64,000 bases of DNA from an uncultured Gammaproteobacteria bacterium. GTDB taxonomy: Bacteria > Cyanobacteriota > Vampirovibrionia > LMEP-6097. The stretch is taken from the NCBI GenBank assembly GCA_964551135.1, contig CAZKAT010000003.1:1514-65513 (forward strand), read 5' to 3'. Below, one piece after another: positions 27,407 through 29,452 of the stretch (positions are counted from its first letter, which is position 1; each line of letters starts with the position of its first letter). The notes below the pieces were generated by a model. It had not been told where the DNA came from and did no database searches. It saw only the letters and a list, made by a program, of their open reading frames with translations. Position numbers and translations under genes: made by a program.

Positions 27407-29452
27407 TTAACCCTTCACAAAGCCCTTAACCTCAGAAACATAAGGCATAAATCCTTGTTGTACTTCAGCAGGCAAATCTACTAATCCATAATTTTTAGAA
27501 TCTACAAACATTAGTATTTGTTTACCCTTACCCACTAATTCACCCTTAAGGTCAAGTATCTGATGTTCAAGAGTAACAAACTTACGATTGTAATCAGCAA
27601 TCCTAATCTGGATAGTCACTTCATCAAACTCCTTAATCTCCTTCTGGAATTTATGATCAATACTACGAGTAAGAATTAAATATGGTGAGGTCTTAGGATC
27701 AAAGTTAGGCAAGACATGCGCAAAAAATAATTCACGAGTTTTACCAACCCACATTAAATACATTGCAAAGTAAACATTACCAACAGAATTAGTATCCTGA
27801 TAAGTAGGAATAAAGCTGTGTACAAACCAATGATCCTTAATGTAGCAACCCTTAATACTCACAGGAACTGCACCTACAGGTAAATGACTAAGATCAACAG
27901 GTTTAATCTCTATAGCTTGAAAACCACCAATCTCTACTCTTGATTCAGGAATAAGCTTGCCTTCATTAATAATCCCAGACTGGGTTTGCGAGATCTTATT
28001 AGTTTCAATAGTCCAACCATACCAAAAAGGCATCAATGCAGCAATGCCCATAAGAATAGGATTCTCACTAAAATAACCAATTCCGAAGATCGCTATACTA
28101 GAAAGAGCTGAAGCAAAAAGCTTGAGAGAAGAGAAAGTTTCTCTAGGAGCCAGTCTTCCCGAAACAGCTCTATAAAGCACTACTGAATACACTAAGAAAA
28201 AAGATGCAAAGAACGCTAGATAGTATTCAAGTTCAAATCTGAAGAATCTCTCCAGGTTTGGATCAAAACGTGCAATAAACTTACCTGCTTCAGTAAAGTG
28301 CAAAGTACAGATAGCAGAAACTACACAAAAGGTAAACCAAAGTATTCCAGAATTAAGCAACTTCACTGGCACAAACGAAAATATAAGATTCTTAGAATCT
28401 TTCAGAATTGATTCTGTATACCATTTATAAGTTATATAACCACTATCGAAGGTAGCAAGCACGGCAAAACCAATAAAGGTCATATAGAAACTTAATAAGT
28501 AATTAAAACTAGGCTCCCATTTCAAAACTTGAGTAATAGTACTTTTAGCAGAAAATAGTAAACTACTACTATCTATATGAGAAAGACTTGCAAGCACTTC
28601 TGGGAAAGTAGTTTGACCATACATGTAACAAGCGAGGGCAATCATACCATCAGCCATCAATACTAACCAGAAAATTAAACCAGCAACAATATAACTCTTA
28701 GCTACAGAAGTATTCTCCTTCTTGATTTGCACCACACGCTGCCAATTCTGTAAGTCAAGCCAAGGACCACAAAGGAAACCAAGCAGAATCGGAATCCAAA
28801 ACATATAGTAAGCAAGTGCTGACTTGAAATGAAATAGACCTGGATAATTAAAAGCCTTCTCAAACCAAGATAGAGTCTCTTGATTCAAGGAGACTTTCGC
28901 AACTAAACCAGTATCATCTGAATTGAATACAGCAGAAATTAAAGAATCATTACTAAAGAGTTTAGAGTCCAAAAGCACCCATAGGGAAACAAACATAATC
29001 AATGCATAAGCAGCATGACTATATTTGATCTTATTAATAGGAAATTCTTCACCCAAAAATATCACCGCTCCGATAAACATCATGGCTACAAGGAAGGAAA
29101 AAATTCCCAGTGGCAAGGTTATATATTTAAGACAGCAGAATATAGTTAAAGTTATAGCTAAGAATTGATAGAAGAGTAGCGCAAACTTAAAATTGGCAGC
29201 TTGTTTCAAAAATTCTTTCTCGAATTCTTCGCCGCTAGCATAATGACTGGTAATCTTTGCATTAATAAGCCCAAACAAGGTCAGCCCCAGAGCATCAATA
29301 GTTACAAAAGCAATCAAAGCCTGAAAGCCAAACTGAATCGCCACCTGTACCGCAAAAAATAAACCAATACCCCAAGTCCAAGTTAAAGCAACTGAGTTAC
29401 CCCATAGTATGGTGTTAGTTGCTCTAGAAATAAAGTTAGATTTGGCTTGCAT
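27407..29452 (-). CDS. Polytopic membrane protein with C-terminal hotdog-fold (4HBT-like) thioesterase domain
   Basis: 681 aa; roughly 500 aa of repeated hydrophobic helices, then a soluble C-terminal domain (VGNVYFAMYLMWVGKTRELFF...) resembling 4HBT/YbgC-type acyl-CoA thioesterases. Confidence 0.45.
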   Translation of the reverse strand: MQAKSNFISRATNTILWGNSVALTWTWGIGLFFAVQVAIQFGFQALIAFVTIDALGLTLFGLINAKITSHYASGEEFEKEFLKQAANFKFALLFYQFLAITLTIFCCLKYITLPLGIFSFLVAMMFIGAVIFLGEEFPINKIKYSHAAYALIMFVSLWVLLDSKLFSNDSLISAVFNSDDTGLVAKVSLNQETLSWFEKAFNYPGLFHFKSALAYYMFWIPILLGFLCGPWLDLQNWQRVVQIKKENTSVAKSYIVAGLIFWLVLMADGMIALACYMYGQTTFPEVLASLSHIDSSSLLFSAKSTITQVLKWEPSFNYLLSFYMTFIGFAVLATFDSGYITYKWYTESILKDSKNLIFSFVPVKLLNSGILWFTFCVVSAICTLHFTEAGKFIARFDPNLERFFRFELEYYLAFFASFFLVYSVVLYRAVSGRLAPRETFSSLKLFASALSSIAIFGIGYFSENPILMGIAALMPFWYGWTIETNKISQTQSGIINEGKLIPESRVEIGGFQAIEIKPVDLSHLPVGAVPVSIKGCYIKDHWFVHSFIPTYQDTNSVGNVYFAMYLMWVGKTRELFFAHVLPNFDPKTSPYLILTRSIDHKFQKEIKEFDEVTIQIRIADYNRKFVTLEHQILDLKGELVGKGKQILMFVDSKNYGLVDLPAEVQQGFMPYVSEVKGFVKG

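What the first reader, a model, noticed from the sequence alone, without database searches (positions are those of the whole stretch)
27407..29452. Fusion of a polytopic membrane domain to a C-terminal hotdog thioesterase
A roughly 500-aa multi-helix membrane region is fused to a soluble 4HBT-like thioesterase domain. This pairing is uncommon and suggests coupling of membrane transport or lipid handling to acyl-thioester hydrolysis. The gene sits immediately upstream of the tag-mutS-thioredoxin cluster.
Basis: inference. Interest (0 to 1): 0.45.

Follow-up and report, generated by a model that had tools for sequence, protein, structure and literature searches.

The report
Symporter-like permease fused to thioesterase
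This gene encodes a membrane transporter of the sodium:solute symporter type permanently joined to a cytoplasmic thioesterase that resembles those of enediyne antibiotic pathways; the combination recurs in hundreds of bacterial species, is annotated only as "acyl-CoA thioesterase", and has never been studied.

Summary
Window 27407-29452 (-) is one 681-aa ORF with a 12-helix membrane domain (aa 1-481), a variable linker (482-535) and a C-terminal 4HBT_2 hotdog domain (536-672).

The hotdog half is closest to the enediyne product-release thioesterases (CalE7, DynE7, SgcE10, EspE7). As in those enzymes, the canonical catalytic Asp is an invariant Asn.

The fusion is found in about 554 species genomes (Vampirovibrionia, Verrucomicrobiota, Sumerlaeota, Bacteroidota). 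It has no conserved neighbours and no polyketide synthase nearby.

Best model (inferred, about 0.4): thioester cleavage on the cytoplasmic face is coupled to H+-linked passage of the released hydrophobic acid. I rate it a new variant of known kinds, of moderate interest.

The parts
27407..29452 (-). Complete CDS (681 aa plus stop) of the permease-thioesterase fusion protein
   Evidence: ORF list. There is a 100 % identical database protein, P0001, on a 288-kb contig, and full-length homologs at 34-90 % identity.
28010..29452 (-). N-terminal 12-TM LeuT-fold permease domain (aa 1-481), a divergent DUR3-related SSS-family homolog that lacks the SSS N-terminal extra helix
29345..29404 (-). TM1 motif WGNSVALTWTWGIGLFFAVQ, with the helix broken at W25-T-W27-G28; W25 and W27 correspond to the DUR3 substrate-clamp residues W93 and W95
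   Evidence: These residues are invariant in 30/30 members. The AF2 helix breaks at residues 26-28. The same motif occurs in bridging SSS proteins and in DUR3. DUR3 residue roles come from PMC11840088.
29015..29026 (-). TM5 K143-x-x-H146, an invariant basic pair flanking the position of DUR3 H222 (the Na2-site position)
   Evidence: K143 and H146 are each 30/30. DUR3 H222 maps to S145. The role of H222 comes from PMC11840088. The functional equivalence is inferred.
28736..28768 (-). TM6 signature GPWLDLQNWQR; D233 corresponds to DUR3 D312, the proton-coupling Asp, and the helix is broken at D233
   Evidence: D233, Q235, W237 and R239 are invariant and Q238 nearly so. The motif aligns to the bridging SSS 'DQQxWQR' and to DUR3 D312/W316. 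D312N nearly abolishes DUR3 function (PMC11840088).
28670..28672 (-). F261 (TM7), at the position of DUR3 W338, the second half of the aromatic clamp
   Evidence: Chained alignment; F is present in 30/30 members. The role of W338 comes from PMC11840088.
28439..28456 (-). TM8 motif A-T334-F-D336-S337-G. T334 aligns with the PutP Na2-site residue T341, and D336 is an invariant TM8 acid two residues before the position of DUR3 E402
   Evidence: Alignment with E. coli PutP and bridging SSS proteins and the mapping. T334, D336 and S337 are each 30/30. PutP S340/T341 as Na+ ligands is from my own knowledge.
27848..28009 (-). Flexible inter-domain linker (aa 482-535), variable in length and sequence
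   Evidence: AF2 pLDDT is below 50 for aa 488-520. Identity to distant members is 10 %, against 35 % for the membrane domain and 58 % for the thioesterase domain. The alignment shows length variation.
27437..27847 (-). C-terminal cytoplasmic hotdog (4HBT_2) domain (aa 536-672), of the enediyne-thioesterase type
   Evidence: Pfam PF13279 at E 2e-14. PDB profile hits: 5vpj 1.7e-12, DynE7 1.3e-11, CalE7 2.6e-10 and SgcE10 2.8e-10, against YbgC at 0.1-0.6. Foldseek gives TM 0.8-0.85 at 25-28 % identity, against 18-19 % for YbgC.
27731..27805 (-). Active-site motif TYQDTNSVGNVYFAMYLMWVGKTRE. N555 replaces the canonical catalytic Asp. Y565 and R573 match the conserved Tyr and Arg of the enediyne thioesterases
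   Evidence: Direct alignment puts YbgC D18 on N555, all the enediyne enzymes carry Asn there, and the Ala of EspE7 R35A falls on R573. N555, Y565 and R573 are invariant in 30/30 members.

Best explanation
The gene encodes a self-contained, two-module inner-membrane protein.

Module 1 (aa 1-481) is a 12-TM LeuT-fold permease from a previously unannotated, very divergent branch of the sodium:solute symporter family. Its nearest relative is the urea/H+ symporter DUR3. It retains the TM6 Asp that couples DUR3 to protons (D233), a second buried acid on TM8 (D336), a basic K143/H146 pair on TM5, and the aromatic clamp (W25, W27, F261). The residues that hydrogen-bond urea in DUR3 are Gly or hydrophobic here (G30, G56, F226, M/L412). 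The pocket should therefore be larger and greasier, and the substrate is not urea. Both termini are cytoplasmic.

Module 2 (aa 536-672) hangs on a ~54-residue flexible linker. It is a hotdog thioesterase of the CalE7/DynE7/SgcE10 type, in which an invariant Asn replaces the usual catalytic Asp and an invariant Arg/Tyr pair is kept. Hotdog active sites form at subunit interfaces, so the protein must at least dimerise.

Proposed working (inferred): the thioesterase cleaves an acyl thioester (acyl-ACP or acyl-CoA, probably with a hydrophobic or conjugated acyl group) at the inner face of the membrane. The tethered permease then carries the released acid across the membrane together with H+. This amounts to hydrolysis-fed export with no partner genes needed.

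Confidence in the domain identities and topology is about 0.9. Confidence in the hydrolysis-plus-export mechanism is about 0.4.
For: SHOWN:
- One ORF, with the fusion conserved full-length in four phyla and 554 species genomes.
- Sequence bridge to Pfam SSF proteins at library-wide E 1e-15, whose nearest solved structure is DUR3 at E 6e-18.
- Functional DUR3 residues map onto invariant family residues (with residue roles from PMC11840088).
- N-in/C-in topology: K+R density 0.163 inside against 0.058 outside, in 30/30 members.
- The thioesterase domain is closest to the enediyne thioesterases, with Asn at the Asp position and the Arg retained.
- Enediyne thioesterases with this Asn are active, essential product-release enzymes (PMC9992847).
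- The thioesterase domain is the most constrained part: 58 % identity across phyla against 35 % for the membrane domain. Its clade was found only fused.
- Rare thioesterase-less N-domain proteins keep the transporter residues, so the membrane domain is an autonomous module and does more than anchor.
- No conserved neighbour across phyla, so the unit is functionally self-sufficient.

INFERRED:
- Many SSS substrates are carboxylates, and thioesterase products are carboxylates (my own knowledge of ActP, MctP, SMCT1, PanF and SiaT).
- The transporters ABCD1 and Comatose give a precedent for thioester cleavage coupled to transport (PMC7838297 and PMC6642094, abstracts).
Against: - There is no experimental datum on any family member.
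- Direction of transport is unknown, and SSS proteins are normally importers.
- The linker is long, disordered and unconserved, which argues against a rigid channelling geometry.
- In class-I hotdog thioesterases, loss of the loop Asp usually kills or cripples activity (PMC8918352), so the domain could be a binder and not a hydrolase.
- No conserved basic residue could be placed in the predicted substrate pocket to hold a carboxylate.
- No synthase, ligase or ACP gene is linked, so the thioester substrate is entirely unknown.
- The residue mapping to DUR3 relies on chained sequence alignments at 10-20 % identity. A structural superposition was not possible.
Confidence: 0.4

Rival explanations
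1. Importer with a built-in acyl-thioester sensor. The SSS-like domain imports a nutrient (for example an organic acid that is then activated to its CoA ester). The Asn-bearing hotdog domain binds the acyl-CoA or acyl-ACP product without turning it over, or only slowly, and feeds back on the transporter. This would resemble the regulatory cytoplasmic domains of other secondary transporters and the SSS-domain sensor kinases.
For: The catalytic Asp is replaced by an invariant Asn. Substituting that Asp inactivates Ps4HBT and Orf6 and lowers SaDHNA activity 300-fold (PMC8918352). SSS proteins are typically importers, and DUR3 is an importer (PMC11840088). A flexible tether suits a regulatory domain. 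SSS domains fused to signalling modules, such as CbrA-type kinases, are known (my own knowledge).
Against: The nearest relatives with the same Asn/Tyr/Arg motif are catalytically competent and essential thioesterases. A 25-residue active-site motif is almost identical to theirs. No CoA ligase is linked to the gene.
Confidence: 0.25
2. Membrane-tethered housekeeping thioesterase. The two halves do unrelated jobs. The fusion merely localises a general acyl-CoA or acyl-ACP thioesterase to the membrane, as YbgC works at the membrane with phospholipid-synthesis proteins, next to a transporter for an unrelated solute.
For: The linker is long and unconserved. There are no conserved partners. Thioesterase-less versions of the permease exist. 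Public annotation treats the protein as a FadM/YbgC-like thioesterase.
Against: This thioesterase clade was never seen unfused; every short hit was a fragment or a frameshifted copy of the fusion. The fusion has been kept across four phyla, with the thioesterase as the most conserved part. The domain is far from YbgC/FadM: E 0.1-0.6 against 1e-12 for the enediyne type, and below every NCBIfam cutoff.
Confidence: 0.15
3. Oligomerisation module. The hotdog domain mainly serves to dimerise or tetramerise the permease, as the cytoplasmic C-terminal domain does for plant DUR3, and catalysis is vestigial.
For: Hotdog domains are obligate dimers or tetramers (PMC8918352). A 2025 bioRxiv abstract reports that the DUR3 C-terminal domain is essential for tetramer assembly. 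The canonical Asp is lost.
Against: A purely structural role does not explain strict invariance of the active-site loop and helix residues (D553, T554, N555, G558, N559, Y561, Y565, R573, E574) across phyla.
Confidence: 0.1
4. Artefact. The fusion results from a mis-assembly, a missed stop codon or a frameshift joining two genes.
For: None beyond the general possibility in metagenome-derived sequence.
Against: The same full-length architecture occurs in hundreds of independent assemblies, including the complete 5.77-Mb Arachidicoccus ginsenosidivorans genome CP042434.1. Apparent split versions are frameshifted long-read contigs.
Confidence: 0.01

Closest known systems
DUR3 urea/H+ symporter (SSS family, TC 2.A.21; solved structures 9j7c, 9vim)
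   Different: Identity is about 11 %, and Pfam SSF does not detect the domain. It lacks the N-terminal extra helix, giving 12 TM against 15 in DUR3. The urea H-bonding residues T98, Q124, N305, Y315 and Y461 are Gly, Gly, Phe/Leu, Gln/His/Asn and Met/Leu here. The C-terminal domain is a hotdog thioesterase.
Uncharacterised bacterial SSS proteins of ~450-510 aa (e.g. P0217, P0232; Pfam SSF, TIGR00813 superfamily level)
   Same: They are the nearest sequence relatives of the membrane domain outside the family (E 1e-15..1e-10). They share S-x-A-x-x-W-x-W, D-Q-Q-x-W-Q-R and S-T-L-D-S-G.
   Different: They carry the N-terminal SSS helix, have no thioesterase domain, and are recognised by Pfam SSF. 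Their function is also unknown; similarity to PanF, PutP and ActP is weak and below the cutoffs.
Enediyne hotdog thioesterases CalE7, DynE7, SgcE10 and EspE7 (ThYme family TE15)
   Same: Same fold (TM 0.8-0.85), 25-28 % identity, and an almost identical motif T[YF]xDTNxVGNVYFxxYxxWxGxxRE with Asn in place of the catalytic Asp and a conserved Arg.
   Different: Those enzymes are free-standing ~140-150-aa proteins encoded next to an enediyne polyketide synthase, and they release a polyene from its ACP. Here the domain is fused to a permease, no PKS lies within +/-8-10 kb in 83 loci, and it carries its own invariant residues (H600, K601, N622-R-K-F, H630, K642) that the enediyne enzymes lack.
YbgC/FadM-type acyl-CoA thioesterases (the current public annotation)
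   Same: Same 4HBT_2 hotdog superfamily. D16, Y24, Y28 and R36 of YbgC align with D553, Y561, Y565 and R573.
   Different: The catalytic D18 is Asn. Scores are far below the family cutoffs: TIGR00051 33 bits against 68.7, thio_ybgC 23.6 against 141. The PDB profile E-value is 0.1-0.6.
Peroxisomal ABCD transporters (ABCD1, Comatose) with intrinsic acyl-CoA thioesterase activity
   Same: A conceptual analogue in which thioester cleavage is physically coupled to membrane passage of the acyl group (PMC7838297 and PMC6642094, abstracts).
   Different: Those are unrelated ABC-type primary transporters, their thioesterase activity resides in the transporter itself with no hotdog domain, and they are eukaryotic. 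There is no homology.

Membership tests
Sodium:solute symporter (SSS/SLC5) family | LeuT-type inverted-repeat fold with broken TM1 and TM6 | tested here: met
Sodium:solute symporter (SSS/SLC5) family | Significant sequence similarity to family members (Pfam SSF PF00474 / TIGR00813) | tested here: inconclusive
   A direct Pfam/NCBIfam scan finds no hit at E<=1. The family profile does reach true PF00474 proteins at E 1e-15..1e-10 over nearly the full length, and hits DUR3 at E 0.0016. Homology is supported; membership by the curated model is not.
Sodium:solute symporter (SSS/SLC5) family | Conserved TM6 D-Q-x-x-x-Q-R-type signature and TM8 Ser/Thr at the Na2 site | tested here: met
   GPWLD233-L-Q-x-W-Q-R aligns with the bridging SSS 'DQQxWQR'. 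T334 aligns with PutP T341.
Sodium:solute symporter (SSS/SLC5) family | Extra N-terminal helix before core TM1, giving N-out topology | tested here: not met
   The family starts about 40 residues later than SSS proteins and PutP. The positive-inside rule gives an N-in topology.
Sodium:solute symporter (SSS/SLC5) family | Cation-coupled solute transport activity | not testable with these tools
   This needs transport assays.
DUR3 urea transporter subfamily | Urea-coordinating residues (W93, W95, T98, Y117, Q124, N305, Y315, W338, Y461 of AtDUR3) | tested here: not met
   Only W93 and W95 are kept. W338 becomes Phe and Y117 becomes Phe. T98, Q124, N305, Y315 and Y461 become G, G, F/L, Q/H/N and M/L (residue roles from PMC11840088).
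DUR3 urea transporter subfamily | Proton-coupling pair D312 (TM6) / E402 (TM8) | tested here: inconclusive
   D312 is conserved as the invariant D233. The E402 position is Gly338, but an invariant Asp (D336) sits two residues earlier on TM8.
Enediyne-type hotdog thioesterases (CalE7/DynE7/SgcE10; ThYme TE15) | Single hotdog fold of the 4HBT class | tested here: met
   Pfam PF13279. Foldseek TM 0.8-0.85 to 4i4j, 2w3x, 2xem, 5vpj and 9ccr.
Enediyne-type hotdog thioesterases (CalE7/DynE7/SgcE10; ThYme TE15) | No acidic catalytic residue (Asn at the Asp position) plus a conserved Arg and Tyr on the central helix | tested here: met
   N555, Y565 and R573 are invariant. They align with the Asn, Tyr and Arg of 5vpj and DynE7 and with the mutated R35 of EspE7. 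The residue roles in CalE7 are from my own memory of Kotaka et al. 2009, which the library does not hold.
Enediyne-type hotdog thioesterases (CalE7/DynE7/SgcE10; ThYme TE15) | Encoded beside, and acting on, an enediyne polyketide synthase (PKSE) | tested here: not met
   No conserved neighbour of any kind, and no PKS, within +/-8-10 kb in 83 loci. The window neighbours are tag, mutS and trx.
Enediyne-type hotdog thioesterases (CalE7/DynE7/SgcE10; ThYme TE15) | Hydrolysis of an ACP-bound polyene thioester | not testable with these tools
   This needs enzymology.
YbgC/FadM acyl-CoA thioesterases (current annotation) | Catalytic Asp on the loop before the central helix (YbgC D18, Ps4HBT D17) | tested here: not met
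   YbgC D18 aligns with the invariant N555. The importance of this Asp is documented in PMC8918352.
YbgC/FadM acyl-CoA thioesterases (current annotation) | Score above the curated NCBIfam cutoffs | tested here: not met
   TIGR00051 scores 33.2 against 68.7, TIGR02799 scores 23.6 against 141.35, and PRK10800 scores 17.6 against 185.

The most novel reading that the evidence does not exclude
A LeuT-fold secondary-transporter scaffold has been converted into a chemically driven exporter. Thioester hydrolysis by the fused enediyne-type hotdog domain is mechanistically coupled to outward translocation of the acyl product. This would be a bacterial, single-polypeptide counterpart of the thioesterase-dependent ABCD1/Comatose mechanism. 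It would also be a route by which Verrucomicrobiota, Sumerlaeota, Vampirovibrionia and some Bacteroidota release a so-far unknown hydrophobic or polyene-like acid, made without a linked PKS, to the envelope or the medium.
Probability: 0.15. Interest if true: 0.8.

Novelty: new variant of a known kind. Interest (0 to 1): 0.5.

Why it matters
- It defines a family present in about 554 species genomes across four phyla whose larger half is invisible to Pfam and NCBIfam. Public annotation ("acyl-CoA thioesterase FadM", "hypothetical protein") is misleading on both halves.
- In the literature searched here, it is the first secondary transporter found carrying a covalently fused thioesterase.
- It extends the Asn-type (enediyne-like) hotdog thioesterase clade far outside actinomycete antibiotic clusters.
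- If hydrolysis and transport are coupled, it would be a new way of energising or feeding a LeuT-fold transporter.
- It could also be a handle on an unknown lipid or acid export pathway in poorly studied, mostly uncultured phyla.
- If instead the hotdog domain is a sensor, it would be a new regulatory module for SSS transporters.

Tried and rejected
- **Direct Pfam and NCBIfam scans of the membrane domain** gave nothing.
- **An 11-sequence N-domain profile against PDB sequences** found nothing at E<=10. Only the 30-sequence full-length profile touched DUR3, at E 0.0016.
- **Genomic context as a functional clue.** Three hand-inspected distant loci and an all-against-all clustering of neighbours in 83 loci showed no neighbour shared across phyla. 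There is only lineage synteny: mutS in 21/28 Melainabacteria loci, and LptF/G-like (22/45) and GH75 (18/45) in Verrucomicrobiota. I therefore dropped both a PKS/FAS-linked role and any link to tag-mutS-trx.
- **Search for a free-standing copy of this thioesterase clade.** All short hits were fragments on short contigs or frameshifted long-read contigs.
- **The 475-aa ORF immediately downstream as a partner.** Homologs are adjacent in only 7/28 Melainabacteria loci and in no other phylum, and there is no Pfam or PDB match.
- **Promoter and terminator scan.** Matches were at chance level.
- **Literature searches for an SSS-thioesterase fusion** found nothing.
- **Papers not held.** The primary CalE7 and SgcE10 structure papers are not in the library, so the CalE7 residue roles rest on memory plus the EspE7 R35A entry.
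- **AF2 coordinates** are not exposed, so domain docking and pocket geometry could not be examined.
- **Urea as substrate** was considered and rejected because five of the nine urea-contact residues are replaced.
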